DNA of 64,000 bases from a virus (lineage: Duplodnaviria; Caudoviricetes), in IMG/VR virus record IMGVR_UViG_3300037963_006186, positions 1,382-65,381 of that record; one strand, written 5' to 3'. Shown piece by piece: positions 996-64,000 of the stretch. Positions within the stretch are counted from its first letter, which is position 1; each line of letters starts with the position of its first letter. Below the pieces are notes generated by a model. That model ran no database searches. It saw only the letters and a list, made by a program, of their open reading frames with translations, and was not told the DNA's origin. Made by a program: the position numbers and the translations under genes.

Positions 996-1026
996 TGTAA
1001 AAGGGATTAATCCCTGTGGAGAAAAT

Positions 1027-1302: not shown

Positions 1303-1303
1303 G

Positions 1304-1462: not shown

Positions 1463-1476
1463 AGCAAGGACGGTAA

Positions 1477-1874: not shown

Positions 1875-1880
1875 TAAAAG
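1852..1880 (+). promoter_or_regulatory. sigma70-type promoter
   Basis: TTGACA-17nt-TAAAAG with extended TG. Confidence 0.55.
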
Positions 1881-1900
1881 TGTTTTAGTAATAACAATAA

Positions 1901-22029: not shown

Positions 22030-25000
22030 TTATTTTTGTGGTTGTTTTTTTACTCGATCGTTTAGATATCTAATTTGTTCTCTCAGCTTTCTATTTACTT
22101 GTTCTTCATAAGTTCTGGGAGTCAAATATCCAAAACCGAATGCTTTTAATATTTCTAATGGCTGATACTGATCATACTCAAGGGTGTATGATGACCCATC
22201 GGGTGCAACATATTGTTCATCAGCCCTCATAAAAATTCTACCAGTAGCAGTATCAAGATTGTCAGGCCCAAAATTAACTGGCCTTCTCATGTAGCTGCGT
22301 CTTCTTTCTTTTACGAAGCCGGGAGATGTAGCAAACGGGATATTGGCAAGCAAAGGCTTTTCACGGTCAGCTTGAAAGTATAAGTCTGAAGCCTTTACTA
22401 ACGCCTCTGTAAAACCAATATTGGATCTATCAAGGGCCTCCAAAACTCTACCCATACGGCCCGTTACTGGAGTCTGCAAAAAGTTCATCAGCATGCTGTA
22501 AGTGTATGGGTTTTGAGCAATGTATATGCCCCTTGCAGGCATTTCTAAGTTGTTTGGGTTGACTCTTCTGCCTGTGTTGGCATCGAACCCCCAGTCTTTT
22601 TTCATATCGTCATATGGAATGAACTTAATGTTCAAATAATCCCACAAAGCACCGCCAAAAATGTCGTAGTCAAGCTGAACAAGCAAGGCTGGGACTTGAT
22701 TGGTAGCTCTCTCTAAGGCAAATCCCCTACCAGGATCAACACCAACAAGCTGTCGAATACCTTCGACTAAGAACGGACTACCTCTGCCCGCTATAGCTTG
22801 CATGCTTTCTCTCATGTCTGGAGAGTCAAGATCTCCTGACACTGTTCCTGGGATACTGGAAGCTAATTTTATAAAATCAACCAGCAACTGCATGGTGTCC
22901 GAAACGCTTGTGTAAGGCAAGCGAACGAAAGTTCCGTTGATTTCGAACGGCAAAAATATTCTCGATTTGTCCCAAGAAGCCAACATTAAATCGGGGTCTT
23001 CACCTTTTGTTGCAGCTATTTGAGTTGATCTTGCTAATTTCAACTGAGCCACAATCCGGTCTGGGTTTTCAATCAAAGAACGCATGAACAAACCAGACGC
23101 TTGTGCAAAGTATGTCCAAAAAGCAAACGCTTTTGCCAAATAAGACGCTTCAATGTCCGTCATTCGACCGTAATCAAGCTTAATGTCCAAAGTTCTTTGT
23201 GCTGCATCAGAAAAGTCGACGCCGTTTTCAAGTTCACGTACGAAGACTTTAAGTCGTTGATACATATCGATTGATGTAAACGCTTCTCTATAAAATCGGT
23301 GAGCTTTATCTAAAGCGTTGCCCCTTGTAAGAAGCCAGCCTAAAGTAAGTCCCGCACCAGCACCTGTAGCAGTGCCAGCAACAACACCGGATGCGCCAGT
23401 CAACAAAGAAGCGACCAACCCTCCAATGGCCCCAGCTTGCGCACCGGTAATCTTAACGCTCGATTTTTTAAATGTGTCTTCTATTCGGTTGTGAATATTA
23501 GGGTCAGCAATCATGTCAGCAAATGCAGTATGAAAACCAAAAGCCTCCATATTGTTTGCGACAAAATCAGCAGTCAAAATCCTGCCGTCACGTAAAACGA
23601 GCGGCTTAGTGTTTGGTCTATAAGAGCCATCGCCAGAAATTCTAGCCATCACACCAGCAACAAAATTTACGTTCGTTCCTGTAGTTTTATTTAAAGCACG
23701 AGAAAATGGACCTTTTACAAAATCAGGAATTGTTGCAAAAGCTGCTCTTGCACCTTGTCCAAGGTGTATTTCACTTAATCCGCCAACAAATAAGCTGACC
23801 GCATAAGGAACCATTGGCAATCCACCAACACCAATCAACAACCTTCTGTAGTAATGGCGTGGATTTATGAGAAGATCGGAGGCTCTTTCGGCTGCGGTTA
23901 ATATGTCTTTCCATTTTTGAATGCCCCATGGAATCTTATTGTCTGGATTTAAAGAGTACTCAACGGTGCCTTTCGGGCCATAATTTCTTCCAAATGTTCC
24001 TGATGCAGCGCCAGAGGTGTATATGCTGCTAAGTGCATCCTCTAATCCCTCAATCATCGTCTCAGGTAACAAAAAGTACCTATCGCCAATCATGACTTTG
24101 GAAAATTGACCAAGCTCCCTTTTCACTCCCATGGAATCTAATATTCGAGACGCTTCTGCTCTTGCGTCTCGATCTATGGCTCCGATTGATTTTGCGTCTT
24201 GATGCTCGCGATATGGACTATCAAGAGGTCCATATTTTTCTGGAGGTGGCCTTAAAGGTTGATCGAGCACCTGTCCTTCAGTGGTTAAAATTACACTTTC
24301 CTGCCATTGCATTTCATCATTGATGAACTGAGCAATTCTGTCGATGTATTTTTGCCTGTCTAATCCTGGGGCCTCTCCAGGCTCACGCACTTTAGTTAAG
24401 CCACGAGTAGAGGTATCGTAGCCAAGTTCAGCCATTCTTTTAGCGAGGCCGAATCGGACCTCATCTAACTTCATGTAGATCAAAACGTTTGTGAGCATCA
24501 CCTCGCTTTCACCGTAAGGTTTCTCCAACGCTTCTTTGGATTGTTTTTTGATTATTTGTTTGATTATTCCGTCTACTTCCCCGTACTCGTATAAACCACC
24601 CAGGCGCTTTGTTGTTGCCACATCCTTTATATGTTGAATATCTCCAACATAAAAAGCCTTATAAAGCCCCTTTATTTGTTTGTCTGTAAAGTTCCAATCT
24701 ATTTTGTTTTGCTGATGACCTATTGCTCTTTTGAATGTTTGTTTTGCAAAATCAACAACGTATTCTTTCTTCTCTCTGAGTCCTATTTCTAATATTTGAA
24801 TTGAATCAGCAACAATGTTTGCTTCTGACTCAGAAAGATTTCGAATACTACCGGTGTTGTTATCAAAAACCCCGGCACCTTTTTCTTTTAAGGTTCTCAA
24901 ATTGTTAAGCGCATGTCGCTCGGCGCGAGTCATGCCATAAAATCCGTCAAGTAAGTCTTGGATTTGATTCAGTTTTCCGTAAATGTAATTTAAATCAAAC

Positions 25001-28000
25001 GGTTCTACTGGAGGAAAACTTACAGGAGGTGGCTGTCCTTGTCTTTGTGCGTCTCTTATTTGAGCTAATGCATCGGCATCAATTTTGTTTTTTGTTTCAG
25101 AAAAACTGCTTACGATGTCGAACAAAGCACTGACATTTGCAAGCTGAACACGAGGCACTAAAAGATCGACTTGATTCTTATAAAAATCAAGAAAACTATC
25201 TAATCCCGACTTTTCAGCAGCGGTAGCAAGCTTGTCTGGTATCGAGGCAATTTCACGAGTCCACTTTTGCCACTCTGAAACAAGCGCTGGGTCTGCATTT
25301 TTCTTGTTGAATCGGGGGGGGTTCACCTCAAACAATTCAGCAATTTTTTCGAATGCTGCTTTCATTGGCAACAAAACGCTTCTGTTCGAAAATTTTTGTA
25401 TAAATAGTTGCGTGTAACCAGGGTGAATAGAGTTTCGATCCACTCTATTCAGCGGGTTGGCTTCTATGTCCTGAGCCACTTGAAGCACCCGCATATATTC
25501 GTTGTGAGACAATATTTTAAGGTTTGCGTCTGGGTCTAACAAAGCCAATGGTAAATCATTGCTTTGCGGGCTTGCAGCAAGCTCTTGAAGCAACGTCTTG
25601 AGTCCAGCACGCTCACGATCATTCAATATCAAAAATTCAGTCGTATAAAGCAATTCATCAATTGCTTCATCAAATCGAGTGCCTACTGGCATTTGTGTGC
25701 TGGCCTTGATTCTTTCTCGAAAAGCACTGATGTCAGCATCGGTGACGTCTGATATGCCATCGAGATCGTATAAGGCGGTATATCCTTGTTCAGATTTTTG
25801 ATAGTTCCTTTGATTAAGTCGATCAGCAAGTTGATCTGGAGTCGACCCCAAAGCGTCTGTCAGCCGTCTCTTGGCTGCCTCTACAATCGGCGCCACTCTA
25901 TAGTTAGGCACAATATATTTGCCTCCAGTGCCTACAGAGGCTTGGTTTTTTGCACCAAACGGATACGTCAATGAGCTTTCAGCACCAGCAATTCTTTTGC
26001 GGAATGGTTGAACCTGAATCAAGCTCAGCAGCTTACGACCAACTTCGAGTGGATCATAGTAAAAGTCGGCGTATACCTGCCTTGGAATGCGCGTGCGCTC
26101 ACCAGTACGAGGATCGACTTGAATCTCAACTCTAGTTTGAGTTTTTTGCCCCAAAAAAGCCCGCAAAGTTTGCTCGTCCATGTTCATTTCTTGAGCACCC
26201 TCTGCTTGTTTGGTTTTCTTTGGTCGAGCTTCGGTGGCACGCTCTAAAGCATCACTTGATACAAATATTGCTTCGGCTCTCCGCCTTCTTGCTTTTTCAG
26301 TGAATCCTTCAACAAAACGCCTATCCGATGGTAGTTCTCCAAACTCAACGTCCCAAAACTGACGGACTTGTTTGGGTAAAACACCCGGTTGCTTACGAAG
26401 CCGTGAGTAAAACTGGTGAAGCTTCATCCAAAGTTGGTCTATGAGTTTTGCTACGTACCCGTTTGGTGAGTCTTTTGTTCTCCGGTAATACTGCCAAGCA
26501 TCGCTGAGTTGTGTCGAACCTTCAGATGTCAAAGTGCGGACGCCATTTTCATCCACATTATGATCAAACATGCGGATGAGTTTTTGAGAAAATTCAGGAC
26601 CCATAAGAGAAACCATAAAGTCTGCATTTGCAGACCAAAGGTCGCCCATATCACCCGATCTAAAAAGGGTAATTATTCGCTTACCTGTGTTCTCATCGTA
26701 TTCAAACGCTGACCTTCTCACACCATCACGAGCAGTAAATCGAGTGTCACCATCAGGCTCGTCTAATCGCAGCCGAACCAATCCGTCCGTAGTATCAAGA
26801 CGAACTTCTAAATTTTCTATGACTTCTTGAGCGTTAAAAAATCGGGTGTTTGGTGATGAAGCAGCAGTAAATGCTTGAGATTCTATTTGAGCCAAAAACA
26901 AAGATGAGTCATTAGGTGATATCAAACCCTCTTCAACCATTCTGTTCAAATTAGACTGGATGGTTTTGTAGGCTTTTGATGACTTGAAAGTGCGAACGGT
27001 GTTTGTTCCGAATTTTCTTACTATTTTTTCAGCTTCTTTGCTTAGCTCAATGCTGTCATCAGTAGACTTTGCAAACGCCAAAAAAATGGCATCAGGATCC
27101 AATCCGGCCTGTAGTGCAAGTCTTCGAAAAAGACGAGTTTCTGCTGCAGTCATTTTTTCGAGTGGGTTCAAACCCTTGTTCAACATTCGAACTGCTGCTT
27201 CTTCGTGTAGCTTTTGTCGGGCCACAACCGGGTCTACATTTACATCCTCTACAACGCCAGCGAGCAACTCTTGCTTAGCTATCTTACGGCCTACTCCCGA
27301 CCCTCTTGCTACAAAGCCGGCATACGCCGCATACGGAGAGTTGCCAGCCAGACGTAAACCTTTACCAAGTACTTTAAATATTGGCCTTTCTACGTTTATA
27401 TTTTCAGTCAAAAACCCGGCTGTAGACAAAATGTTGTACTCAACGTCTCCTGGTTGATAACCATAAACTCTGGCAATTTCTTGGGCGGCTATGTGTGGGC
27501 CACCCAAACCGCTTTTCATGCGAGCATCAATTTTTACCAACAGGGGCAAACCCGGCTCTCTAATACCTCTATCGAAAGCTCTATCTGCCCTTGACTCGCC
27601 ATATATTTCATTTGGAACACCGTAATTAATGACTAAGTCTTGAAGCTTTTCACCGACATGGAATGCAGTTTCGGTCAAACCTGTCATGATCCAGTTTGCC
27701 CAGTTCATTATTTCGGCGCCCTCGGCCCTTTTGTACAAAGTGCCGTGACCCTCTACATACACAGGAGTCTGTGTAAGATCGAAACCCTCTCTTTCTAAAA
27801 TACGAGTTGCTCTACCTCCGGTTTTTTCATCAATAAATGTAATAGTATCTTCTGCCCAATCTTTGATTGTTTCAAACTTAGGCATCGTAGATTCAACAAT
27901 GACATCAAATCCGGGTGAGTTTTTAAATAAACCAAGTTGAACCGCGTTGATAGAGTTTTGAATTTCAGTGTCTGATCTTTGCTCATGCACAGCCAAAACA

Positions 28001-29472
28001 GCGTCCGCAAAATTTGGCGGAATCGTTGAGTTAGACATCATGGGGCCGTTGGGATCTATTGTGCGAGCTAAAGTTTTGAACTTTTGCAGATCAGGCATCT
28101 CTCCTCGTATTGAGGGGTGCAACTGGTTGTACGATAGGTTTTGTACAAGGTTCAGAACTTGAGGTTTGATTTCTTCCTCTGTAGATATTTTGTCTTTTAC
28201 TTGAATGAATTTATCCAAGGCCAACCAATCCGAATCTGTTGGTTTTTGCGCACGAGAAAGAAGGTCTTGCTCTTCTTTCTTTTGGTACATCATTTCTTTT
28301 CGAACTTGCGACCGCATGGCCTTGTATTCATCGGTACGGCCAATCTCATCTTGGATTTCTCGCAGCCCCAAAAAAAACTCATCTCCAATATTGTTGACAA
28401 CATTTCGAACGGTTTCGTCGCCCGCAATGAGAGGTATAAAGGCTTCGGGGCCAATTATATCTTGGCTTTCAAGCTCTTCTTCGACCTTACGAATATATTC
28501 AGACCCCTTGTTTGAAATGTCTTTCAATTCGTTTATTTTATTTTTCTCTCTCCACTCATATGATTTTTCCACACCTAAATATTCTGCCAAAGAAACGACG
28601 TTAGTAACGATCAAGTCTCTCGCTTCAGGTGAGTTTACGATTAAAAAAGAAGCCAAATCATCTGGGATACCCATCACAGTCCAAGTTCTACGAACGAGGT
28701 CCATTCCGTAATCAAGCTCGTTATAATCTTCTGGTAAAGACGCAGCGCCAGCAACGCCTATTGTAGCAGCGGTGCCGATACCTCCAGCAGCCGCTCCCCC
28801 CAGCACTCCGCCCAACAACACCCCACCTACGCCTCCAGGGGATCCAGCAAGCCCGCCAAACACAGCACCGGCTCCAGCAAGGTACTTTGTTGCCTCTTTG
28901 AGCGTTTCATTGTCGGGAACAAAATATGGCCTTTCACCAACATTAGGAGGCCTTACAAGTTCGCCTTCTGTAGTAATAATTTTTTGTTCAATCAGTTCAG
29001 ATTGCTTCGGCAGAGTTCCTGGGTCTGGGTCAGATGTAAATAAACCTCTCACCTGATCGATATAGCTCACGCCCTCTGCAGCTTTTTTAGATGCCTGCTC
29101 CTGCAGCTTATACGCTGGAATAGTTCCTTCGTTACCGGACCTTTTTACCATTCTACCTATGGATGGTGAAAAAAATCCGCCTGAGTCGTAAGCCCCTGAA
29201 AAGACACCCGCTTTGTCGAGAACTGTTCCGTACTCTTTGCCTTTCTCGTAATCAGTGCCCAACATGGTCGCGAAAGTGCGTTGATTTAGCTCTTCTACTT
29301 CGGCCTCGGGATAATCTTCAGCAAGGCCACTAAAAACCATTTCGAAGTATGTATCTGCGAGTTCGTCCCGCTTTTCTAACAATACATCGGTAGGCTCATT
29401 TAAATTAAATACGTCTTCTGGGGTTGATCCTGGCGGTATAGACATGCCGTCGTTTTCGTTTTCTTCGGCCAT
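22030..29472 (-). CDS. very large internal virion (ejection-type) protein, 2480 aa
   Basis: Size; position as last of four internal-protein genes after the nozzle; glycine-zipper hydrophobic segments; LDYGRMT..E...FAFWTY motif. Confidence 0.7.
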   Translation of the reverse strand: MAEENENDGMSIPPGSTPEDVFNLNEPTDVLLEKRDELADTYFEMVFSGLAEDYPEAEVEELNQRTFATMLGTDYEKGKEYGTVLDKAGVFSGAYDSGGFFSPSIGRMVKRSGNEGTIPAYKLQEQASKKAAEGVSYIDQVRGLFTSDPDPGTLPKQSELIEQKIITTEGELVRPPNVGERPYFVPDNETLKEATKYLAGAGAVFGGLAGSPGGVGGVLLGGVLGGAAAGGIGTAATIGVAGAASLPEDYNELDYGMDLVRRTWTVMGIPDDLASFLIVNSPEARDLIVTNVVSLAEYLGVEKSYEWREKNKINELKDISNKGSEYIRKVEEELESQDIIGPEAFIPLIAGDETVRNVVNNIGDEFFLGLREIQDEIGRTDEYKAMRSQVRKEMMYQKKEEQDLLSRAQKPTDSDWLALDKFIQVKDKISTEEEIKPQVLNLVQNLSYNQLHPSIRGEMPDLQKFKTLARTIDPNGPMMSNSTIPPNFADAVLAVHEQRSDTEIQNSINAVQLGLFKNSPGFDVIVESTMPKFETIKDWAEDTITFIDEKTGGRATRILEREGFDLTQTPVYVEGHGTLYKRAEGAEIMNWANWIMTGLTETAFHVGEKLQDLVINYGVPNEIYGESRADRAFDRGIREPGLPLLVKIDARMKSGLGGPHIAAQEIARVYGYQPGDVEYNILSTAGFLTENINVERPIFKVLGKGLRLAGNSPYAAYAGFVARGSGVGRKIAKQELLAGVVEDVNVDPVVARQKLHEEAAVRMLNKGLNPLEKMTAAETRLFRRLALQAGLDPDAIFLAFAKSTDDSIELSKEAEKIVRKFGTNTVRTFKSSKAYKTIQSNLNRMVEEGLISPNDSSLFLAQIESQAFTAASSPNTRFFNAQEVIENLEVRLDTTDGLVRLRLDEPDGDTRFTARDGVRRSAFEYDENTGKRIITLFRSGDMGDLWSANADFMVSLMGPEFSQKLIRMFDHNVDENGVRTLTSEGSTQLSDAWQYYRRTKDSPNGYVAKLIDQLWMKLHQFYSRLRKQPGVLPKQVRQFWDVEFGELPSDRRFVEGFTEKARRRRAEAIFVSSDALERATEARPKKTKQAEGAQEMNMDEQTLRAFLGQKTQTRVEIQVDPRTGERTRIPRQVYADFYYDPLEVGRKLLSLIQVQPFRKRIAGAESSLTYPFGAKNQASVGTGGKYIVPNYRVAPIVEAAKRRLTDALGSTPDQLADRLNQRNYQKSEQGYTALYDLDGISDVTDADISAFRERIKASTQMPVGTRFDEAIDELLYTTEFLILNDRERAGLKTLLQELAASPQSNDLPLALLDPDANLKILSHNEYMRVLQVAQDIEANPLNRVDRNSIHPGYTQLFIQKFSNRSVLLPMKAAFEKIAELFEVNPPRFNKKNADPALVSEWQKWTREIASIPDKLATAAEKSGLDSFLDFYKNQVDLLVPRVQLANVSALFDIVSSFSETKNKIDADALAQIRDAQRQGQPPPVSFPPVEPFDLNYIYGKLNQIQDLLDGFYGMTRAERHALNNLRTLKEKGAGVFDNNTGSIRNLSESEANIVADSIQILEIGLREKKEYVVDFAKQTFKRAIGHQQNKIDWNFTDKQIKGLYKAFYVGDIQHIKDVATTKRLGGLYEYGEVDGIIKQIIKKQSKEALEKPYGESEVMLTNVLIYMKLDEVRFGLAKRMAELGYDTSTRGLTKVREPGEAPGLDRQKYIDRIAQFINDEMQWQESVILTTEGQVLDQPLRPPPEKYGPLDSPYREHQDAKSIGAIDRDARAEASRILDSMGVKRELGQFSKVMIGDRYFLLPETMIEGLEDALSSIYTSGAASGTFGRNYGPKGTVEYSLNPDNKIPWGIQKWKDILTAAERASDLLINPRHYYRRLLIGVGGLPMVPYAVSLFVGGLSEIHLGQGARAAFATIPDFVKGPFSRALNKTTGTNVNFVAGVMARISGDGSYRPNTKPLVLRDGRILTADFVANNMEAFGFHTAFADMIADPNIHNRIEDTFKKSSVKITGAQAGAIGGLVASLLTGASGVVAGTATGAGAGLTLGWLLTRGNALDKAHRFYREAFTSIDMYQRLKVFVRELENGVDFSDAAQRTLDIKLDYGRMTDIEASYLAKAFAFWTYFAQASGLFMRSLIENPDRIVAQLKLARSTQIAATKGEDPDLMLASWDKSRIFLPFEINGTFVRLPYTSVSDTMQLLVDFIKLASSIPGTVSGDLDSPDMRESMQAIAGRGSPFLVEGIRQLVGVDPGRGFALERATNQVPALLVQLDYDIFGGALWDYLNIKFIPYDDMKKDWGFDANTGRRVNPNNLEMPARGIYIAQNPYTYSMLMNFLQTPVTGRMGRVLEALDRSNIGFTEALVKASDLYFQADREKPLLANIPFATSPGFVKERRRSYMRRPVNFGPDNLDTATGRIFMRADEQYVAPDGSSYTLEYDQYQPLEILKAFGFGYLTPRTYEEQVNRKLREQIRYLNDRVKKQPQK

Positions 29473-54407: not shown

Positions 54408-57400
54408 CTAAAGCAACTCAACATCGCCAATCAGCTCTTTGTATAACAAGAATGATATCAAACCAGCTTCATGTAAATCATGAACATTAGAAATATTTCT
54501 TTTTAAATTTATTTTTTCTGAGGTGGTTAACTGGACACTTTGAACAGGATGTTTAAAAAATTTAGCCTTATTAAAAACATACCGATTTATTGATCCAAAC
54601 TCACCAAACATATCGACCAATGGTGCGCCCAACTCAATAGTATCATTTAAGCGAGACCTCTGTTCGTTCTCTTGTAATTCTCTAATGGCAATGTCCATGA
54701 CTATCTTCGGACCCTTGGCGCCGATTACTGTAAATGCACGAACATCATCATACCGCTGAACACCAGGAAAACGGGTTTCATTGTAAATATCAGAACCCAT
54801 CAAGTATCTTTGGTAGTCAGTATTAGAGTAGTCTTGCTCGGCCACAGCAAATTGATCTGCAGTCTGCAAGTACCAGTCATTCAACATCTGGCCACGCTTA
54901 GATTGTTTTTGGTCCTCAGAAAGACTGTCGTACTCAGCTTCAATCATTAAGAGCGTTGAATATAAACGGTCAGCAGAGATTCTTTTGTTGGTGACATCGT
55001 GAATCATTTCAATAACGGGGCCGATGTCAATCGATTGGTTGTATCCCCCCTCCATTGGATCTCCTGACTCTTGCGGCTTGTCAATTCCGACTCTCGAGTC
55101 AGAAGTGGTGCTGAAGCCAAACTCTGACATCATCGCATCAATGTCGCTAAACCGACTAAACAACGAACCGGAATCATTTAAGGCTGGATTGCCTTGTTCC
55201 TCTGCGGTCTTGGCTCCGGCTGTGGCTACGTCTGGGGCGGGGGGCTTGGGTACGTCGGCAGTCTTCACCGCTACGTGAATCTCATCGTCAAAAGCATCGT
55301 CCAGGCGAACATTGGCTGGGTCTACACGCACCTCAACCACTTCAGAGCCATAGCCCTCAGCTTGACCCGTAGGCTTGCTTGAAAAGAAAACCTCGTCAGT
55401 GTTCTCTTTGGAAACAAACTTTCCTGTTCTGCGAATCTCAGCAGCAGCCTCGGGAGTCGTCCGATGGTACAAAGTTATCGTGCCATCGTCGTTCAGCTTG
55501 GGAGTGTTGCCCTTTAAATCAGTCAGACCCTCAAGCTTCGCAGCACGAGCACCCTTCATACCCTTATACAGGGCCATGCCGCCCAGCCCAATCGCTCCCA
55601 GAGCGGCAGCCGCTGAAAGCTCCTCTTCCTCTGCTGCGGCGGCTCCTATGGCGATTCCAGGCAATGCAACGCTGTACAGCTTCTGGGGCTTGATGACCTT
55701 GTCTTTGACTTTGTCGGTGAGTTCGAAGAAGGGGACTTCGATGGATCGTTGCATCAATTCACCATCGACATCAAATTTTTCACCCACGCCAATGTTGGCT
55801 ATATCATGCTTCGCCTTCCTCGCAGCCTTGACCCGTGATTGGTATTCCTTTGTGGTCTCGTCCGGTAGGCGGTCAGGGGGTACAAAGGACTCTTTCTTGG
55901 CGATGCTGGGAATCAGGGTGTCGTAGTAGTACTGGTTGCCCTTGAAAATCCTTTCGGCTTCTTCTGCGCCCTCTGCCTGTTGACCACCGAACTCTTTAAT
56001 CTCTTCAAGACGCTTCAGAAACGTTTCTGGTTTGCCCACCAAAGCAACAGCCTCACTTCGCGGCAAAGTCACCACAGGCGTGATCATGTCTGCACGGCTG
56101 AACGCTACGCCGTCGTAGCCTCCGTCTGCGGCCTCGCGAAAGATGCGCTTGATGGCAAGGGCCGTCCACTCCTTGGTGTCTTTCAGGGGGGCGTCGGGGA
56201 CCTCGTCTCCACCTTGAGAGATATATCTTGGTGAATATTCGCGAATTGCACTTACTTCAATTTCACCGGACATGGGAGTATCGAAAACGATCTTCCCAGA
56301 ATCATCCATTCGATTGGAACCAACACCGATATCTAAGTTTGATTTCTGAGCTTGACGAATCAATCCATCCGCTGCTTCACTGGCTTTCACTCGTAAATTT
56401 ACAAGCTCAGGTCGTTGATCTGTAATGGATACATTGGGATTTTCTGCCATCCAATCGAGCAAGTTTTTTTGAGCGTCTTCCAGTTTTTTTAGTGCTTGGT
56501 CAACTTCACCTTTTAAAATATATTTACCTTCATACCCTCTTTTCCGTCCGGCTTGATGCCAGTCAGACTGAATCTCCTCAACAAACAGGATCTTGCGGCC
56601 CCTGCTATCAATCCGGGTCTTGAACCGGATGTGGACCATGACGTTGGGGATTTCGCTGTGGTGGGAGTCGGTGAAGACTTTTGAAGTGTCATGAACGGTA
56701 CCGTAATCAGGAAGGCGTTCTGCCTCATCGTATGCGTCTACAAGCTCTTGCTCTAAAGGGGTCAAATCATCCCTTCCCCTCAAGATGGATACGTTCAACC
56801 GCTGGTCTGCTTCTCTAGCTCGATCAGCGACTTCACGATATTTTTGGATTGCGACAGCACGCTTACTTGATTCGGGCACCGGAACCGTCAGCAGAATCTC
56901 TTGGTAGTCATCGCCGCCTGGGACGGTGTATTCCTTCCACTTGGGCAGCAATTTTTGGGAATCAAGCTGGAATGCCTTATACTTTTGTTCGTAATCTCTG
57001 CTTGCTTGGACATAGATCTTGTAGTCTTCAGAACTCTCAAACTTACGCAAAGCAGCCAACCGAGTCTCGACCTCGGGCATCTCGTTCAAAATACGGGCGA
57101 TTGTGCTCAGGTTTTGATGCTTCTCAATATTTCTATTTGCCTGCTTCAGGAAATCTGGATCAACACCAGAGGCAGGCACTACACTAAAATCAATGTACTG
57201 CTGTTCAACAAAGTCTTTATACTCAGGATCAGCCAGCTTCGCGTTAATCGTGTTGCGTGCCTCGGTGATCCGTGCGGCGTCTGTAGGCATCCAATTTGAA
57301 ATCGCAACATTGCGATTTAAATCAATCACTCCATTCACAACGTCTTGAACGTCTGGTGGCACATTCTCGAAACTTTTGATCCTCTCTAAGCCGCTAACAT

Positions 57401-58772
57401 AATCAATGTACAAATTGAGGAAGTAAAACGGATTGTCGGAAAAACGATGCATTTGGTCCGAAACGCTCTTACCAGGAGCAAGAATCCGAAAAAGATCGTT
57501 TGCGTCGTCCTCTAAAAGATCAAAGTATTGCGACCTAACCATTGCAAGGTCTTTGATTTCTTTTGGAGTGTCTTGTTCACCAAGCCGAACCTCTTCGATC
57601 TGGACCTTGTTGTCATTCAAGTGCTGGATCAACTCGTCCTTGGTGACGCTCTTTTTGCCCGATGCCTTTGCCGCATTGATGAAGTCGTCAAACTTTGTGT
57701 CGTTCCACTCGCTCTCCGAGATGTCCTTGTAGATGAACTCAGGATGACGAATCTCTTCCCCAGAGGGTGTGAGCTTCTTGTCGCCCTTCTTGTGGATGAT
57801 TTCCCCAGTATCCTTGTCCTTCACATCCTTCGTGTATCGAACAACTTCACCCGATTTCGGGTGCTTTTTGCGACCCAAAGTGCTTTCAAGCGCCTGAACA
57901 CCAACTTTATCGGGCAAGCCTGCCACTATCTTCTCTGATGCGGCCTCGAATACGGGTGCTGGTGCATCAGGTGCTGCCTTTGCTGCGTCAGACAAATCAT
58001 CAGGAGCACCACGAAGAATCTGCTTTGCAAAGCCGGATCCAACTAAAGGAATAGCCGCCGCTAAACCCGATATCGCCGTGTCAGTCAAATGATCGTAGCG
58101 CTCGTCAGGACGATCATACGCCAAGCGTGCAGACGAAATCGCCGAAACTAAATCCGAAGCACCCGTCGGATCCTTGAAACTCGCTATGTCAGCTAAATTA
58201 CGGGCAGACTCAGGATCATCCTCCAAAATGGCCTTCTGTGCCATCTCGTCAATAGCAACCTTTGCTTTCTCAGCAGTGCCAATAGGATCCTCAATCAAAT
58301 CCAAACCAACCTGACGCAAAGTAGAACCACGAACGTCCTTCACAAACTCAGGCTCGCCAACCACAGGATCAAAACCAAACTTCTCCTGAAGCCTGCGCTC
58401 CTCCTCCGGGTCAGAATGCTCGCCAAACAAATAGCGACCGCCCTCCGCCAACGCACGCTCACCACGGTACATCAACGATTCCTGACGCTCACGCTCGTCC
58501 TCACGCGCATCAATAGACGCAAACCAAGCATCCGTTTGGTCCTGATCCATGCCAGCAGGAACCTCAAAGCCCCGATACTCAGGACGAATGTCGCTACCAC
58601 GAAGACTCTTATACCTTTCCCGAAGATCACCAATCGATTCCTTAGCTTCAAACTCAGGTATCGAAGAGGCCCTCAATCCAGGCTCGTCAAGCGGCTGACC
58701 CGTCTCTCGAACAGGACCACGGAAGCTGCCCAACAATACGTCATCAAATGACGCCATAAAACTAAGCCCCAA
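54408..58772 (-). CDS. large polyvalent protein with EEIQSDW domain and ADP-ribosyltransferase-like domain
   Basis: YTVPGGDDYQEILL, HIRFKTR, LFVEEIQSDWHQ, VPDAP, AADGGYDGVAF; then ITLYHRTT...VFFS...GYG..VVEV. Confidence 0.75.
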   Translation of the reverse strand: MGLSFMASFDDVLLGSFRGPVRETGQPLDEPGLRASSIPEFEAKESIGDLRERYKSLRGSDIRPEYRGFEVPAGMDQDQTDAWFASIDAREDERERQESLMYRGERALAEGGRYLFGEHSDPEEERRLQEKFGFDPVVGEPEFVKDVRGSTLRQVGLDLIEDPIGTAEKAKVAIDEMAQKAILEDDPESARNLADIASFKDPTGASDLVSAISSARLAYDRPDERYDHLTDTAISGLAAAIPLVGSGFAKQILRGAPDDLSDAAKAAPDAPAPVFEAASEKIVAGLPDKVGVQALESTLGRKKHPKSGEVVRYTKDVKDKDTGEIIHKKGDKKLTPSGEEIRHPEFIYKDISESEWNDTKFDDFINAAKASGKKSVTKDELIQHLNDNKVQIEEVRLGEQDTPKEIKDLAMVRSQYFDLLEDDANDLFRILAPGKSVSDQMHRFSDNPFYFLNLYIDYVSGLERIKSFENVPPDVQDVVNGVIDLNRNVAISNWMPTDAARITEARNTINAKLADPEYKDFVEQQYIDFSVVPASGVDPDFLKQANRNIEKHQNLSTIARILNEMPEVETRLAALRKFESSEDYKIYVQASRDYEQKYKAFQLDSQKLLPKWKEYTVPGGDDYQEILLTVPVPESSKRAVAIQKYREVADRAREADQRLNVSILRGRDDLTPLEQELVDAYDEAERLPDYGTVHDTSKVFTDSHHSEIPNVMVHIRFKTRIDSRGRKILFVEEIQSDWHQAGRKRGYEGKYILKGEVDQALKKLEDAQKNLLDWMAENPNVSITDQRPELVNLRVKASEAADGLIRQAQKSNLDIGVGSNRMDDSGKIVFDTPMSGEIEVSAIREYSPRYISQGGDEVPDAPLKDTKEWTALAIKRIFREAADGGYDGVAFSRADMITPVVTLPRSEAVALVGKPETFLKRLEEIKEFGGQQAEGAEEAERIFKGNQYYYDTLIPSIAKKESFVPPDRLPDETTKEYQSRVKAARKAKHDIANIGVGEKFDVDGELMQRSIEVPFFELTDKVKDKVIKPQKLYSVALPGIAIGAAAAEEEELSAAAALGAIGLGGMALYKGMKGARAAKLEGLTDLKGNTPKLNDDGTITLYHRTTPEAAAEIRRTGKFVSKENTDEVFFSSKPTGQAEGYGSEVVEVRVDPANVRLDDAFDDEIHVAVKTADVPKPPAPDVATAGAKTAEEQGNPALNDSGSLFSRFSDIDAMMSEFGFSTTSDSRVGIDKPQESGDPMEGGYNQSIDIGPVIEMIHDVTNKRISADRLYSTLLMIEAEYDSLSEDQKQSKRGQMLNDWYLQTADQFAVAEQDYSNTDYQRYLMGSDIYNETRFPGVQRYDDVRAFTVIGAKGPKIVMDIAIRELQENEQRSRLNDTIELGAPLVDMFGEFGSINRYVFNKAKFFKHPVQSVQLTTSEKINLKRNISNVHDLHEAGLISFLLYKELIGDVELL

Positions 58773-60560: not shown

Positions 60561-61516
60561 CTACTGGAAGAAGAACCTCTTGGATTCGTATTGGAAAAGT
60601 GCAAAGGATCGTCTATTTCATCCCACTCGTCCCACTCTACAAAGTTCAAAATGTCCTCTACCTCGTCATTGTCTACTCGAGCCCATCTGACAACACGCTT
60701 AGAGGCAACAAACGCTAAGGTCTCAGGTAAAGAGCCTGGATCGTTCAAATACTCCACGCGGACCCTACGCCAAAAGTCTTGAGACCGTTTTCTTGTTCTT
60801 CTGGTATGAAGCCGAAGCTTGTTGCCAATCTCAAGCTTTGGAACGTTTTGGACAGCCTTTTGGTGCGTTTTAATCTTCTTCTTGAAGCTGTAGAAAAGAG
60901 CACTGTCAACTACAGGGCCGTGTTTCAAAATATAGAAGTGTATGAATCTCATCGTACACCAAGCAAGCCTTTGCTTCTCCATTACCGTTTGGCGCCTGTC
61001 CAAGAAAGGGTCTGCAGAAACAAGCTTTTTATCGTGATCGGTTTCCTGCAAAATAGAATAGGCCAACGAAAAAAGCCTCCTTGGTGTGCCCTTCTTTCCT
61101 CGCAAAACAGCAAGATTTCCATCAGGATCGCATATTGCCACCTGAAACCCGTCAGAGCTTGCCTCCCACTGTTGCGTTTCAATGGATACCCGTCTAACGT
61201 TTTCAGCGTGATCCCAGTCGATTTCACCGGCCTTGTACTTACTGAGAAAGTAAGCAGTCTTGATTGGCCGCAAAACGTCCAAAAACTTTTCACTCAAACC
61301 AGCAAACTTGATCACCACATCGCCAACCTTCAGGTGGTTTTTTGCATGATCAGGTATTGATGTCAGACGAACAAAGTGAATGACTTGATTAGGTATTACA
61401 CCCATCATGTACTTCTTATATTCGTTAATTTCGTCCTGATTTTGAACGGTTACGCCAAGAACACCATCTATACCCGCCGCTGGAAAGCGATGAGCTAAAC
61501 ACACATATTTTGTCAT
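60551..61516 (-). CDS. hypothetical protein
   Basis: 321-aa ORF with GAGGT SD. Confidence 0.75.
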   Translation of the reverse strand: MTKYVCLAHRFPAAGIDGVLGVTVQNQDEINEYKKYMMGVIPNQVIHFVRLTSIPDHAKNHLKVGDVVIKFAGLSEKFLDVLRPIKTAYFLSKYKAGEIDWDHAENVRRVSIETQQWEASSDGFQVAICDPDGNLAVLRGKKGTPRRLFSLAYSILQETDHDKKLVSADPFLDRRQTVMEKQRLAWCTMRFIHFYILKHGPVVDSALFYSFKKKIKTHQKAVQNVPKLEIGNKLRLHTRRTRKRSQDFWRRVRVEYLNDPGSLPETLAFVASKRVVRWARVDNDEVEDILNFVEWDEWDEIDDPLHFSNTNPRGSSSSRWN

Positions 61517-61589
61517 TTATACCTCGGACAGCGAGTCTATGTCAGCGAAAGGTCTCAGTCAACAGCCGATTATCGCTATTTGTCGCAAA

Positions 61590-62115
61590 ATCCAGGGGGG
61601 CAATCGTGGCCGCCAAAAAAAACAAAAAAAACGAAACGAACCAGGGGGGGCATCAGTCGACGAAAAAACGCGAAAAAAAGACGCACCACACCACCCCCCC
61701 CACCGGGGGTCATCGAAACGGCGCCAAAAAACAACCACCACCACCGGGGGCATGCGTTCAGCTATGGCTCAAAGCGTCACACGTCACACCCCCCACGATT
61801 GAACCAGCGACAAACGCGGGCGATGATAGTTTTCGATACAGCCGCAACCGTGGCCACTGCTGAACTAACAACAGAGGAAACCACAGGGGGGACACTCGAA
61901 ACAAAAGAACGAAAAGAGCAAAGAGCGGAAACCGCCACGGCGCAAACTTCACAAGGTGAAGAAACAGGCGAAGCCGGCCCAGCATTTACAGGGGGGCGCT
62001 CGATTGAATCGGACACCACCACAACACGGGGGGCACCGGGAACTCTCAACGCTTGAGCTTTGCTCCAAGATATGAAGCGGCCCGAAACAGTACACCGCGC
62101 CCGTTGACGGGGGGC
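61590..62115. repeat. dispersed (CA/CC/AC)G5-7 repeats with A-tracts and strong strand bias
   Basis: G-run motif near 61592, 61641, 61700, 61741, 61881, 61988, 62024 and 62107; + strand T-poor. Confidence 0.6.
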
Positions 62116-62154
62116 GTCTGCTGATAGGCTGGAGAATGCAAGCGTTGCTGTCAT
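61777..62154 (-). CDS. possible small protein with RxxxxGRF motif
   Basis: RARCTVSGRFISW; low-complexity V/S tail; weak SD. Confidence 0.4.
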   Translation of the reverse strand: MTATLAFSSLSADAPRQRARCTVSGRFISWSKAQALRVPGAPRVVVVSDSIERPPVNAGPASPVSSPCEVCAVAVSALCSFRSFVSSVPPVVSSVVSSAVATVAAVSKTIIARVCRWFNRGGCDV

Positions 62155-62316
62155 ACCTGGAAAACTAAGCACACGTATATAAGGGGCAATAGGTAAAGCT
62201 TAAAAAAGCCATAAACGAAAAAAGTTTATTTTTTTTTGTTCGTCGATATTCAAGCTTCAAAGCGGGTTTTCGCAAAATGAAGAAAAGTAATTTCAATCTT
62301 TCTTTGTTTACCCCAC

Positions 62317-62350
62317 TTGTCATACCTGACACCGTGCCAAGATTCAAAAT
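62317..62350 (+). promoter_or_regulatory. candidate promoter for the structured RNA
   Basis: AT-rich upstream tract; TTGTCA within a TGTCA-N4-TGACA palindrome; extended -10-like TGcCAAGAT ending ~7 nt before the first hairpin; -35/-10 spacing is non-canonical. Confidence 0.35.
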
Positions 62351-63390
62351 GTCGGCGGAAACACCGGCACAGAGAAAAGCGCCAGCCACCCCAGCGGAAC
62401 CGTAGAAGGTGGCCAAAATCTCACCCGCTCTTTTAAATCTCCATAAGAATAGACAGGCAACCCGGAAACGGGTGGACCCTGACAAGCGGCGCGGGAAAGA
62501 TGAACCCCGCGCAATCGGCCACCGCTGAAATGCAGCAAGCGCAAAGTAGGAGAGACGCTCCCCACCGGGGGGCGCCATCCGAAACGGACTGACAACCCGG
62601 AGCCCCCAAACCTTAAGGAATCCGCCACGGCGGGCAAGGTGAGGCGAGCAGGACAGGCCAACCGATTGAACCCCGTTTGAGTTACCCCTCGGCACGTTTC
62701 AAGGACGGCGAGGGAGTGCCAAGACCCCAACACTGAGGGCGAGCGCCATAAAGGCCACCAGATACAGCACGGCCCTGTCTATTGTAAGCACCCGGAAAAT
62801 CGGAGCAGCCGCAAGGCGTGCCGGGTGAGTGAGTCCGCGAATACAGCGGGCGTCCGATGCGGCCAGCTATGCGGGGCCGTGGGAATATTCCCGAAGAGCA
62901 TAGCAGGGAAGCCCCCACCCAAAACGGGGGGACCGTTAGGCCGTGGCCTACGGATAGAGCGCCCCGGCGAGCGCCAATAATCGCCGCCCCCTTTTCGGTT
63001 CAAGGTGCGCAAGCCCTTCGACCAGTCCAGCCCATGGGCGTGAATAACTCCATAGGGCTGGACAAACCCACTCTACATAACCCGCGCCGGGGTTCCTTTT
63101 ACGTATCGAGGGAAGTCGAGCCCCGGCGGCGGGTGGACCCTCCACTATCATACCGCCACCGATACAACCGGCGGCCAGCAATATCGGCCAAAATGGCCAT
63201 ACATCACAAGCGAAAAGACAAGGGGCCTCGGTCCTTATCTCGTTTTGACGTTGTTTTCGGCGGTCTAAGCGACTCGCAACAATATTGCAGGCCACCCAAA
63301 CTCGGAACGGTTGACCAGTCAATAACCCCGGCGCATATTCCGCCTTGAACGCCGAATATCGCGGTGCCGTAGGTAGTTTCAAACGGCAAA
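62350..63390 (+). ncRNA. candidate large (~1 kb) highly structured non-coding RNA
   Basis: About 20 stems, GNRA tetraloops, perfect 10-bp long-range helix 62448-62457/62774-62783, G-U pairs favouring the + strand, and no credible ORF. Confidence 0.7.
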
Positions 63391-63424
63391 AAAGCGGCCT
63401 GGGCGCCCCCCTCGCACCTCAACC

Positions 63425-63825
63425 CCGGACGTTTTTTGTCCGGCTGTCCGTGACTTCTGCCCGTTTTGTCCTGTACCGTGTCCTGAACCCCTCCCCACTT
63501 GCCACACCCTCCCATGGTGATTATCTGTACCATACAGCCCAAACCCTTATGGCAGGTGTTCCATCAATGGGACAGGCCCTTTGAGGTTAGGCCACCCAAA
63601 AGACACGCTCAAACCCTCAATATTTTCATTCGTCCCAACCGTCCCGGACCTATTGGCCAAACTTTTTAAACCCCTATTTTTCCCTTCTACCCTTACTGTA
63701 TACACATTACCTTTTTTACCTAAAAGGTTCAGGACAGTTAGGACATTCTAAACTTTCCGGCCTACCACCGAAACTTTTCGCCGTCCCAAACCATGGGACA
63801 AACGGCCCCCACGGTGGGACAGCCC
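63425..63825. repeat. GGAC(A/G) iteron-like cluster around an AT-rich core; candidate replication origin
   Basis: TGTCCTG x2, TGGGACA x3, CGTCCC x3 and AGGACA x2 in both orientations; AT-rich 63659-63725. Confidence 0.55.
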
Positions 63826-63924
63826 CCCTTCTACTAAGGTCACACCCCTTTTGCCGGTTTCGAAATGACCTCAAAATCCAGCAGCGGATAAAAACCGGCC
63901 CCCTTTCACCTTGGAGTATCTGAC

Positions 63925-64000
63925 ATGTTCCCTAAATATCTGGCGACCGCCACCACAACCAACATCAAGACCGGTAACGTGCCGACCATAGCCATCGGCG
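63925..64000 (+). CDS. 5' end of an early gene (truncated): MFPKYLATATTTNIKTGNVPTIAIG
   Basis: GGAG SD at 63913; NxKTG motif recurrent in phage early proteins. Confidence 0.55.
   Translation, partial: MFPKYLATATTTNIKTGNVPTIAIG

What the first reader, a model, noticed from the sequence alone, without database searches (positions are those of the whole stretch)
62350..63390. Candidate giant structured ncRNA (~1 kb) in the phage non-coding region
Seen in sequence: a segment visibly more GC-rich than the coding regions, with no credible gene, tiled almost continuously by helices. Local stems include TGTCGG-CGGAAACA-CCGGCA (62350-62369), GCCACC/GGTGGC (62385/62408), ACCCG-GAAA-CGGGT (62460-62473), GCGCGGG/CCCGCGC (62489/62506), CGCTCCCC/GGGGGGCG (62556/62567), CCCTCG/CGAGGG (62686/62709), CACCCGG/CCGGGTG (62789/62821) around GCC-GCAA-GGC, GCTATGC/GCATAGC (62866/62898), CGGCGA/TCGCCG (62965/62981), a 13-bp stem GTCCAGCCCATGG/CCAT-A-GGGCTGGAC (63025/63050), a 16-bp stem 63080-63095/63118-63134, and CGGCGC-ATATTC/GAATAT..GTGCCG (63329-63369). 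Nested long-range helices AATAGACAGG/CCTGTCTATT (62448/62774, closing a ~320-nt domain) and CAATCGG/CCGATTG (62512/62662) imply multi-way junctions. G-U pairs and GNRA loops read correctly on the + strand. Established: phages carry large ornate ncRNAs of unknown function (GOLLD, ROOL). Inference: this is such an RNA, possibly a new class; I recognise no tRNA, tmRNA, RNase P or intron motifs in it.
Basis: partly seen in the sequence, partly recalled or inferred. Interest (0 to 1): 0.9.

Follow-up and report, generated by a model that had tools for sequence, protein, structure and literature searches.

The report
New large structured RNA in marine phages
A gene-free stretch of an uncultured marine phage holds a conserved, heavily base-paired RNA of about 650 to 1050 bases that matches no described RNA family, which would add a rare new example to the few very large structured RNAs known from phages.

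Summary
The stretch is non-coding. It folds better than shuffles: z -3.52 on +, -2.06 on -.

I found relatives in 5 other IMG/VR phage contigs and 20 metagenome contigs, giving 18 distinct sequences with the window. 40 pairs change on both sides, against 12-28 slid, and 0 of 500 shuffles reach this.

No Rfam family matches. A conserved sigma-70-like promoter faces the + strand.

The unit is modular. Module A (62347-62997) is about 650 nt and specific to this subgroup. A hypervariable linker follows. Module B starts with a 21-bp hairpin (63080-63134) that is also present in relatives whose slot holds small ORFs instead of A.

So there is a real, new structured RNA class, but "one 1-kb RNA" is not proven. 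The strand is probable rather than certain, no RNA reads were available, and the function is unknown.

The parts
62317..62345 (+). P1, a sigma-70-like promoter: -35 TTGTCA (62317-62322), 16-17 nt spacer, -10 AAGATT/AGATTC (62339-62345). The inferred RNA start is about 62347-62350.
   Evidence: The aligned relatives keep TTGCCA/TTGTCA/TGGACA, 17 nt, then CATATT/TATATT/TAAGCT/CATCTT, followed by the invariant GTTTGTGTGG (alignment A3). The motif CACTTGNCAYACC occurs exactly only at 62314 and 63496, with 1 mismatch at 964. Reading it as a promoter is inference. The consensus scanner did not list it.
62347..62997 (+). Module A: about 650 nt of structured RNA specific to this phage subgroup.
   Evidence: Covariance model R2 of its 3' 135 positions hits 6 of 31 sources at E <= 2e-22: window, G002, G017, G001, G018, G004. 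nhmmer confirms 20 of 80 metagenome loci. Helices are supported.
62350..62369 (+). 5' terminal hairpin (TGTCGG / CCGGCA).
   Evidence: Present at the stated coordinates. Relatives carry GCGGGG-GAAACA-CCCCGC or GGG-AAACA-CCC at the same place in a shifted register, so only 51% is paired column-wise.
62370..62440 (+). It is absent in one clade.
   Evidence: Six of the aligned sequences have a gap here. The stem is 22% paired in relatives.
62448..62783 (+). Core domain closed by the long-range helix AATAGACAGG (62448-62457) / CCTGTCTATT (62774-62783).
   Evidence: 85.3% of cells are paired and 4 of 10 pairs change on both sides, e.g. GC:11 UA:5 UG:1 and GC:8 AU:5 GU:4. The clade with AUGGGUG/CACCCAU keeps the helix.
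62621..62634 (+). Hairpin with the near-invariant loop CACG (62626-62629).
   Evidence: Five pairs, with CG to GC changes in 5-6 sequences (columns 438-451). The loop is complementary to the CGUG loop at 62942-62945. A kissing contact between them is inference only, since neither loop varies.
62686..62714 (+). Optional hairpin (CCCTCG / CGAGGG, extending to 12 pairs).
   Evidence: 100% paired in the 9 sequences that have it. Absent in the other 9.
62789..62827 (+). Helix CACCCGG / CCGGGTG enclosing GCC-GCAA-GGC.
   Evidence: 100% paired in the 8 sequences with letters, and 4 of 7 pairs change on both sides. It fits better than RNAalifold's alternative CCGG/UCGG hairpin, which would have only a 2-nt loop in L116 and L155 (alignment).
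62866..62904 (+). Helix GCTATGC / GCATAGC with an inner hairpin.
   Evidence: The outer 4 pairs are 83.8% paired and 3 change on both sides (GC:11 CG:6; AU:6 GC:6 GU:4). The inner 3 pairs score 28.8% because of an alignment shift.
62912..62953 (+). C-tract/G-tract hairpin (62912-62931), then the hairpin 62933-62953 with the invariant loop CGUG in GCCGUGGCC.
   Evidence: CCCCCC...GGGGGG in one clade against CCCCGG...CCGGGG in the other. For hairpin 62933-62953: CG:11 UA:7, GC:11 CG:7, and 5 of 5 stem pairs change on both sides.
62965..62997 (+). Last hairpin of module A (CGGCGA / TCGCCG), followed by GCCCCC and the run TTTT (62992-62995). It looks like a terminator.
   Evidence: 100% paired in 18 of 18 sequences. 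One pair is CG in 10 and UA in 8. A run of 3-6 T follows it in 14 of 18 aligned sequences (4 where the T-rich stretch is interrupted by C); the other four, which have no linker, read CCTTTA. Termination here is inference.
62998..63065 (+). Hypervariable linker. In the window it holds the 13-bp stem 63025/63050.
   Evidence: Its length runs from none (L115, L165, L160, G017) to some 240-350 alignment columns (L147, G001, L162), read from the gaps of alignment A3. The window's stem is 60% paired in relatives.
63066..63145 (+). Module B hairpin: a 21-bp stem 63080-63100 / 63111-63134 with conserved flanks ACATAGCC and GGTGGACC.
   Evidence: Model R1 hits 13 of 56 sources at E <= 1e-9. On 23 distinct sequences, 96.6% of cells are paired against 37-51% slid. 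12 of 18 pairs change on both sides, and 0 of 500 shuffles reach this. There are 42 G-U cells against 14 unpaired cells.
63146..63420 (+). Rest of module B: conserved helices, including 63329-63369. The 3' end is not mapped.
   Evidence: nhmmer matches in G005, G019, G020 and G028 as well. Helices 63238-63253 and 63256-63268 have 4 of 5 and 5 of 5 pairs changed on both sides. 63329-63369 is 64-69% paired. No terminator-like site was found after it.
63440..63530 (+). Context, not RNA: repeated TGTCC(N)G/GGACA sites and a second promoter-like site P2 (-35 TTGCCA 63499-63504, -10 TATCTG 63522-63527).
   Evidence: Repeats. G004 has TTGACA, 16 nt, TAAACT at the aligned place.

Best explanation
What is shown. 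A conserved non-coding unit lies on the + strand between two divergent gene blocks of an uncultured marine phage. Behind a conserved sigma-70-like promoter (P1, 62317-62345) sits module A (62347-62997). This is about 650 nt folded into some 20 helices, among them a 335-nt domain closed by a long-range helix. Then come a hypervariable linker and module B (63066 to about 63420), which begins with a 21-bp hairpin. Many helices keep pairing through compensatory changes across 18-23 distinct sequences.

What is inferred.
1. Host RNA polymerase transcribes the unit early from P1.
2. Part of the transcripts may stop at the hairpin plus U-run at 62965-62997, giving A alone. The rest may read on to give A-linker-B of about 1050 nt.
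3. The RNA acts in trans through its three-dimensional fold, as a scaffold, decoy or self-assembling particle. This would be the way GOLLD and ROOL are thought to act, rather than by antisense pairing or by coding.
4. In relatives the same slot between P1 and the B hairpin holds other non-coding sequence and small ORFs. Module A therefore looks like an exchangeable early accessory cargo, of the kind phages use for host takeover or counter-defence.

The biochemical function is unknown. Of the steps above only conservation, structure and non-coding nature are shown.
For: - Non-coding: no codon periodicity and few in-frame indels.
- Structure beyond chance: z -3.52. A 264-pair alifold model is 73.8% paired against 38-44% slid, with 80 against 33-57 pairs compensatory. 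The B hairpin is 96.6% paired with 12 of 18 pairs compensatory.
- + strand: the promoter geometry is conserved in the aligned relatives. The z-score is better on + (-3.52 against -2.06). The B hairpin has 42 G-U cells. Well-aligned helices have 79 G-U against 46 A-C cells although the sequence is A/C-rich. Unpaired A outnumbers unpaired U, 225 to 114. The - strand operon has its own promoter-like site right at its first gene, 61562-61534.
- New class: 0 Rfam matches at gathering score in the window. Only chance hits with E > 0.1 appear in the region and in 7 relatives' loci. No tRNA or tmRNA.
- Cargo slot: the B hairpin is found in G005, G016, G019, G020, G024, G028, G029 and G030, where model R2 of module A finds nothing better than E 0.46. 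ORFs there have GC3 of 0.75-0.88 against GC2 of 0.40-0.67.
Against: - No transcript evidence. No RNA run was listed, so start, end, strand and abundance are all unmeasured.
- The global strand tests are weak. RNAalifold energies are slightly lower on the - strand (-546.7 against -533.8, and -481.3 against -459.6). The MFE is lower on -. In pairs predicted on both strands, G-U against A-C is only 43:29 and 13:11. One helix shows A-C where G-U would be expected (columns 908-926: A-C 9, G-U 0).
- The window's own -10 element is poor (AAGATT/AGATTC), and the promoter scan did not list P1.
- No clear terminator follows module B.
- The 264-pair model was derived from 7 of the 18 sequences it was tested on. 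The R1 alignment is fitted to its own model.
- Several predicted helices fail in the second clade on the sequence-only alignment.
- The cargo and counter-defence reading rests on synteny alone.
Confidence: 0.65

Rival explanations
1. Two separate elements rather than one giant RNA. Module A is a free-standing RNA of about 650 nt ending at the hairpin plus U-run (62965-62997). Module B is an independent conserved RNA element, such as a 3' stabiliser, terminator, insulator or regulator of the P2 region, that closes whatever cargo lies upstream.
For: - The U-run follows the last A hairpin in most relatives.
- Linker length runs from none to some 240-350 alignment columns.
- The B hairpin occurs without A in 8 relatives, in some downstream of ORFs with a coding GC3 signature.
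- A without the B hairpin occurs in G018: R1 has no hit in L083, while R2 scores 115.9 bits there.
Against: - In 4 sequences A and B abut with only CCTTTA between them.
- 15 of 16 sequences that hold A and enough downstream sequence also hold the B hairpin.
- A possible A-B helix, 62986-62990 with 63222-63226, is 87.5% paired but shows no compensatory change.
- The U-run lies 5-6 nt after the stem, which is not classical terminator geometry.
Confidence: 0.35
2. A long structured 5' leader. The P1 transcript runs through the operator/P2 region into the early genes (ATG at 63926), and the structure acts in cis on their expression.
For: It is on the same strand as the downstream genes. No terminator-like site was found after module B. 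In G016-type relatives the P1-like unit carries ORFs, so there it is a messenger.
Against: The downstream genes have their own conserved promoter-like site P2 with flanking repeats. About 500 nt of protein-site-like DNA separates B from the gene. A 1-kb leader with some 40 helices has no precedent I know of (recalled). Module A is swapped as a block between relatives while the downstream region stays.
Confidence: 0.12
3. A replication-origin element. The transcript primes or activates an origin next to the repeated GGACA sites, or the hairpins act in DNA.
For: The region lies between divergent gene blocks. It sits beside repeated TGTCC/GGACA sites and an array of G-tracts. The phage has a primase-helicase but no polymerase was recognised among the proteins I scanned.
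Against: Compensatory changes in helices whose arms lie 320 nt apart fit a folded single strand, not duplex DNA. G-U pairs are tolerated in the B hairpin. No origin test was possible.
Confidence: 0.08
4. The functional RNA is on the - strand.
For: MFE and alifold energies are lower on the - strand. The - strand z-score is also negative at -2.06. A-C outnumbers G-U (195 to 154) under a strand-neutral choice of pairs.
Against: The sequence is A/C-rich on +, so chance A-C is about twice chance G-U (composition). The best-aligned helices favour G-U 79:46, and the B hairpin has 42 G-U cells. The promoter faces +. The - operon has a promoter-like site at 61562-61534. The + z-score is better.
Confidence: 0.08
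5. An unannotated protein gene, or chance stems in GC-rich DNA.
For: Open frames of 129-176 aa exist.
Against: No periodicity, indels that shift the frame, and frames not shared between relatives. Covariation and shuffle controls also argue against it.
Confidence: 0.02

Closest known systems
GOLLD RNA (Rfam RF01998, accession recalled)
   Same: Phage-borne, very large (many members over 800 nt), and built of many covarying helices. It has a universally conserved 3' region, a less conserved 5' region and a variable linker (passages of PMC12286853). Function unknown.
   Different: No match to any Rfam model, even at E up to 10 in the region. No tRNA genes nearby (0 in 64 kb). Here the variable part can be replaced by ORFs. 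Oligomer formation is untested.
ROOL RNA (Rfam RF03087, accession recalled)
   Same: A large ornate RNA of phages and prophages, thought to act as RNA alone (passages of PMC12286853).
   Different: No model match. ROOL is found in rumen and Lactobacillales settings, often near tRNA islands. This RNA lies in uncultured marine phage contigs and was found in none of the bacterial-genome pattern matches: 0 of 100 stretches confirmed.
OLE RNA
   Same: About 600 nt, highly structured and well conserved (abstract of PMC12054373 in the listing).
   Different: OLE is a chromosomal RNA of Bacillota with protein partners. No model match here.
Candidate structured RNAs mined from IMG/VR (DNAVirus_X; PMC10690425)
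   Same: Same data source (IMG/VR intergenic regions) and the same kind of evidence (covariation).
   Different: Those candidates are 29-151 nt long (passages). Single hairpins of this unit could be among them. Their supplementary tables and models could not be opened, so overlap is untested.

Membership tests
GOLLD | Match to the Rfam covariance model | tested here: not met
   0 matches at gathering score in the window. No GOLLD hit at E <= 10 in 61400-64000, nor at E <= 1 in 7 relatives' loci.
GOLLD | Frequent neighbourhood of tRNA genes | tested here: not met
   ARAGORN finds 0 tRNA or tmRNA genes in the 64-kb window.
GOLLD | Conserved 3' region with a less conserved 5' region | tested here: inconclusive
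   The 3' hairpin is found in 13 of 56 sources, and the 5' module in 6 of 31. This is a likeness of layout, not homology.
GOLLD / ROOL | RNA-only homo-oligomeric cage | not testable with these tools
   Needs an in vitro transcript and cryo-EM or mass photometry.
ROOL | Match to the Rfam covariance model | tested here: not met
OLE, HEARO, group I/II introns, RNase P, 6S, riboswitches (all Rfam 15 families) | Match to the family model | tested here: not met
   The best hits in the region are snoR111 (E 1.2) and Tombus_3_IV (E 2.9), i.e. chance level. In relatives the best is BjrC80 (E 0.19), in one locus only.
tRNA / tmRNA | ARAGORN detection | tested here: not met
Protein-coding gene | Third-position variation, in-frame indels, and a frame shared between relatives | tested here: not met
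   201/354, 208/358 and 210/352 variable columns. 4-6 of 26-35 indels are multiples of 3. The longest frames differ in strand and frame.
CsrB-like protein sponge | Excess of GGA / AGGA motifs | tested here: not met
   GGA: 22 observed against 22.4 +/- 3.9 in shuffles. AGGA: 4 against 5.8.
IMG/VR csRNA catalogue (PMC10690425) | Identity with a listed DNAVirus_X model | not testable with these tools
The text gives lengths of 29-151 nt.

The most novel reading that the evidence does not exclude
Module A, alone or with B, is a third, independently evolved class of phage RNA that assembles into an RNA-only particle. Its two invariant, mutually complementary loops, CACG (62626-62629) and CGUG (62942-62945), would serve as contacts between or within chains. 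It sits in an early, promoter-proximal cargo slot that related phages fill with small protein genes. That would make it an RNA-made host-takeover or counter-defence effector, interchangeable with protein effectors.
Probability: 0.15. Interest if true: 0.92.

Novelty: new variant of a known kind. Interest (0 to 1): 0.78.

Why it matters
Very large structured non-coding RNAs outside the ribosome are rare in bacteria and phages, and only a handful of classes are described. Three of them (GOLLD, ROOL, OLE) were recently shown to form RNA-only assemblies of unknown purpose (PMC12286853, passages).

A further, unrelated class would give an independent case for asking what such RNAs do. This one has about 650-1050 nt, clear covariation, a defined promoter and a modular build. 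Its place in a slot that relatives fill with small ORFs offers a concrete, testable idea: an accessory early function. It is also short enough and well enough defined for direct in vitro structure work.

Tried and rejected
- Rfam at gathering and permissive thresholds found nothing. ARAGORN found nothing.
- blastn of the 2.4-kb gap against 50,697 phage records gave no match.
- The terminase's best hit in cultured phages is 27.7% identity, so there is no cultured relative.
- The 2480-aa protein has no match among PDB sequences. Several large proteins have no Pfam or PHROG match.
- The neighbouring 321-aa protein found no relatives in viral contigs. The 1454-aa protein found one record.
- A first DNA pattern for the B hairpin found only the 3 contigs already known.
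- The genome contigs pattern scan gave 100 stretches, all in unrelated, mostly GC-rich genomes. 0 of 100 were confirmed by nhmmer, so there is no prophage copy and no host clue by this route.
- L100 (IMG/VR, pattern match at a contig end) has a 325-aa open frame and no blastn match to the family. R2 gives only E 7e-4 there. I left it out.
- Sequencing runs: no RNA holder was listed, so expression could not be tested. 20 DNA runs from 7 studies hold part of the stretch, and 8 hold at least half of its words. All are labelled marine, seawater or biofilter metagenomes, and one sample may be the source. I did not lay reads, because contigs of DNA runs cannot show a transcript.
- Finding the region in relatives by ORF-free gaps failed, because spurious ORFs fill GC-rich DNA.
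- The GGA-motif sponge idea was rejected.
- RNAalifold on the 17-sequence MAFFT alignment gave only 38 pairs, because the clades are misaligned. Structure-aware MAFFT modes are not installed.
- The alifold 5'-3' closing helix 62347-62352 / 63414-63419 (61% paired) and 63271-63275 / 63395-63399 (30%) are not supported.
- PHROG scan of six small ORFs of relatives gave one weak hit (E 0.005), otherwise nothing. Their coding status rests on GC3 alone.
- Literature searches listed no paper describing this RNA. These are word searches of the held library only.
Full report
**Where it lies.** The window is bases 1382-65381 of a 65,381-bp linear IMG/VR virus record that CheckV rates 89% complete. It is a phage. 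It has a large terminase, an internal virion protein, primase-helicase and helicases, RecE/RecT-like proteins and a RusA resolvase. Its terminase is at most 27.7% identical to that of any cultured phage in the 50,697-record collection.

Genes on the - strand end with a 321-aa ORF that starts at 61516. The next + strand gene starts at 63926 and runs off the contig. The 2.4 kb between them holds no credible gene. The finding covers its GC-rich middle.

GC is 0.57-0.63 against 0.42-0.48 around it, with A well above T on the + strand. The 994 nt from 62347 fold at -394 kcal/mol against -362.4 +/- 9.0 for 20 dinucleotide shuffles (z -3.52). The reverse strand gives z -2.06.

**Non-coding.**
- In a 7-sequence alignment the variable columns fall evenly on the three phases: 201 of 354, 208 of 358, 210 of 352.
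- Only 4-6 of the 26-35 indels against each relative are multiples of three.
- The longest open frame changes strand and frame from relative to relative.

**Relatives.** The terminase found 55 related loci in IMG/VR. BLAST of the region against 30 of those records matched 5. nhmmer on stretches fetched from the syntenic side of the records showed the whole gap is conserved in G002 and G001, and partly in G004, G017 and G018.

A pattern from two invariant blocks found 6 stretches in IMG/VR and 96 in metagenome contigs, of which 80 were returned. nhmmer confirmed 20 of those 80. The rest are chance matches in GC-rich DNA. After removing identical or near-identical copies, 18 distinct sequences including the window were aligned (A3). 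They fall into three groups that differ strongly (mean column identity 44%).

The same pattern in 185,579 species' genomes gave 100 stretches, none confirmed.

**Structure.**
On A3, which is a plain MAFFT alignment, the 118 pairs give:
  - 71.8% paired cells against 32.6-39.8% when the 3' partner is slid by 1-3 columns.
  - 40 pairs with changes on both sides against 12-28.
  - 100 such cells against 15-59.
  - A covariation score of 0.149 against 0.041-0.075.
  - 0 of 500 shuffles reach any of the four.
- *Alifold model.* A 264-pair RNAalifold model made from 7 of the sequences gives 73.8% against 37.8-44.2%, and 80 against 33-57 pairs. That model was derived from some of the rows it is tested on.
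- *Best-supported helices.*
  - The long-range helix 62448-62457 / 62774-62783: 85.3% paired, 4 pairs compensatory.
  - 62789-62795 / 62821-62827: 100% in the 8 sequences that have it, 4 of 7 pairs compensatory.
  - 62686-62714: 100% in 9 sequences.
  - 62965-62986: 100% in 18, with one pair CG in 10 and UA in 8.
  - 62933-62953.
  - The long hairpin 63080-63134.
- *The long hairpin.* Covariance model R1 aligned 28 hits, 23 of them distinct. 96.6% of cells are paired, 12 of 18 pairs are compensatory, and slid controls give 37-51%. That alignment is fitted to the model.
- *Not supported.* 62385/62408 (22%) and 63025/63050 (60%) lie in segments that differ between relatives. Several alifold helices fail in the second clade on the sequence-only alignment. 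A full cross-clade structural alignment was not achieved, because structure-aware aligners are missing and the core domain is too long for a calibrated model.

**Strand and promoter.** Just upstream, the relatives keep a -35-like hexamer (TTGCCA, TTGTCA, TGGACA), a 17-nt spacer and a -10-like hexamer (CATATT, TATATT, TAAGCT, CATCTT). The invariant GTTTGTGTGG follows, and then the 5' hairpin. The window has TTGTCA (62317-62322) and a poor AAGATT/AGATTC (62339-62345). The simple scanner did not list it.

The same extended motif recurs at 63496, before the early genes, and at 964. The - strand operon has its own promoter-like site at 61562-61534.

| Evidence | Favours + | Weak or contrary |
|---|---|---|
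| G-U cells in the B hairpin | 42 G-U against 14 unpaired | |
| Well-aligned helices | G-U 79, A-C 46, though A/C richness makes chance A-C about twice chance G-U | |
| Unpaired bases | A 225 against U 114 | |
| Folding energies | | Slightly lower on the - strand |
| Pairs predicted on both strands | | G-U only 43:29 and 13:11 over A-C |
| Strand-neutral choice of pairs | | More A-C, 195 to 154 |

I put the + strand at about 85-90%.

**Modularity.** Module A (62347-62997) ends with the invariant hairpin GGCGA/TCGCC, followed by GCCCC and a run of T. Next comes a linker whose length runs from none to some 240-350 alignment columns. Module B then opens with the 21-bp hairpin.

Model R2 of the last 135 positions of A hits only the window, G002, G017, G001, G018 and G004. 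That is 6 of 31 sources at E <= 2e-22, with the next real candidates at E 0.46. R1 hits 13 of 56 sources, including G005, G016, G019, G020, G024, G028, G029 and G030.

In G016, a stretch aligned to the window's promoter and first bases is followed by three things:
- About 640 nt with flat GC at the three codon positions.
- Two ORFs with GC3 of 0.81-0.88.
- The B hairpin.

G029 and G030 carry other small ORFs with GC3 of 0.75-0.88. PHROG scans of six such ORFs gave one weak hit. G005 and G019 share 86.5% identity over 868 nt of a different sequence upstream of the hairpin.

So the segment between P1 and the B hairpin behaves as an exchangeable slot, and module A is one of its fillings. Conversely, G018 has A but no R1 hit.

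Whether the window makes one RNA of about 1050 nt, an RNA of about 650 nt plus a separate 3' element, or both by partial termination cannot be decided here.

**Known families.** No Rfam 15 family reaches its gathering score in the window. In permissive mode the best hits in the region have E of 1.2 and above. In 52 kb of seven relatives' loci the best E is 0.19, in one locus only. There are no tRNA or tmRNA genes.

GOLLD and ROOL are the closest in kind. Both are phage-borne, very large, covariation-defined and of unknown function. GOLLD has a conserved 3' and a variable 5' region, and both form RNA-only cages (passages of PMC12286853). Membership is excluded by the model searches, and there are no tRNA neighbours.

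A survey of IMG/VR intergenic regions reported 8,495 novel candidates of 29-151 nt (passages of PMC10690425). Single hairpins of this unit might be among them, but its supplements could not be opened. Three word searches of the paper library listed nothing that describes this RNA.

**How it most likely works.** What is shown is a conserved, non-coding, multi-helix fold behind a conserved promoter-like site. What is inferred is early transcription by host polymerase and action in trans through the fold. The cargo-slot context points to an accessory host-takeover or counter-defence role.

A CsrA-type sponge is unlikely, since GGA is not enriched. Two invariant tetraloops, CACG (62626-62629) and CGUG (62942-62945), are complementary and could form a tertiary or intermolecular contact. 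As neither varies, this is a lead only.

**Limits.**
- No expression data: no RNA run was listed.
- The 3' end is unmapped and the host is unknown.
- The structure model is incomplete.

Noticed in passing
window 61590-62130 (+): The A-rich stretch upstream of the RNA carries 8 runs of 5-7 G, most preceded by CCAC(A/G) or CCA (e.g. ACCACAGGGGGG, ACACGGGGGG), against 2 C-runs. All 14 relatives with upstream sequence show the same one-sided array: 5-10 G-runs, 0-3 C-runs, and a positive A-T skew. The same motif occurs twice inside the RNA, at 62567 and 62926. Its meaning is unknown. It could be another RNA, protein sites, or G-quadruplex or R-loop-prone DNA.
   Followed up: partly
window 62070-62162: This is the most widely conserved piece of the gap by nhmmer. 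It is matched even in distant relatives (G016, G024, G029, G005, G018, G019). It contains a CGCGCCCG-TTGA-CGGGGGGCG hairpin-like site and the 11-mer TGTCATACCTG (62149-62159), which recurs exactly at 62318-62328 in promoter P1.
   Followed up: partly
window 62211-62238: An AT-only inverted repeat ATAAAC / GTTTAT is followed by a run of 10 T. On the other strand it is followed, 3 nt on, by a run of 6 T. It is a weak two-way terminator-like site between the G-tract region and P1.
   Followed up: no
window 63440-63830: At least ten copies of TGTCC(N)G / (G)GGACA lie in both orientations. Examples are TGTCCTGTACC and TGTCCTGAACC in tandem, GGTTCAGGACAGTTAGGACA, and CGTCCCAAACCATGGGACA. They surround a second promoter-like site (TTGCCA 63499-63504, TATCTG 63522-63527) and are conserved in G004. 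They look like operator or iteron sites.
   Followed up: partly
L082 (G016) 660-1299; L071 (G005) about 1240-2090 and L084 (G019): Relatives without module A hold other long stretches in the same slot. G016 has about 640 nt with flat GC at the three codon positions. The 994-nt window 1010-2003, which overlaps only its last 290 nt and mostly covers the ORFs and the B hairpin, folds with z -5.91. G005 and G019 share 86.5% identity over 868 nt, with only implausible ORFs. These may be further unrecognised RNA classes.
   Followed up: partly
L082 1300-1775; L091 9327-9965 (-); L090 7433-7917 (-): Small ORFs of 53-138 aa with a coding GC3 signature (0.75-0.88) sit between the P1-like start and the B hairpin in G016, G030 and G029. 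One has a CxC...CxxC pattern. None has a convincing PHROG match.
   Followed up: partly
window 22030-29472 (-) and 54408-58772 (-): Two very large proteins (2480 and 1454 aa) have no Pfam match. The 2480-aa one also has no PHROG match and no match among PDB sequences. The 1454-aa one has only a weak PHROG hit of unknown function.
   Followed up: no
window 62626-62629 and 62942-62945: Two hairpin loops that do not vary across the family, CACG and CGUG, are complementary to each other.
   Followed up: no
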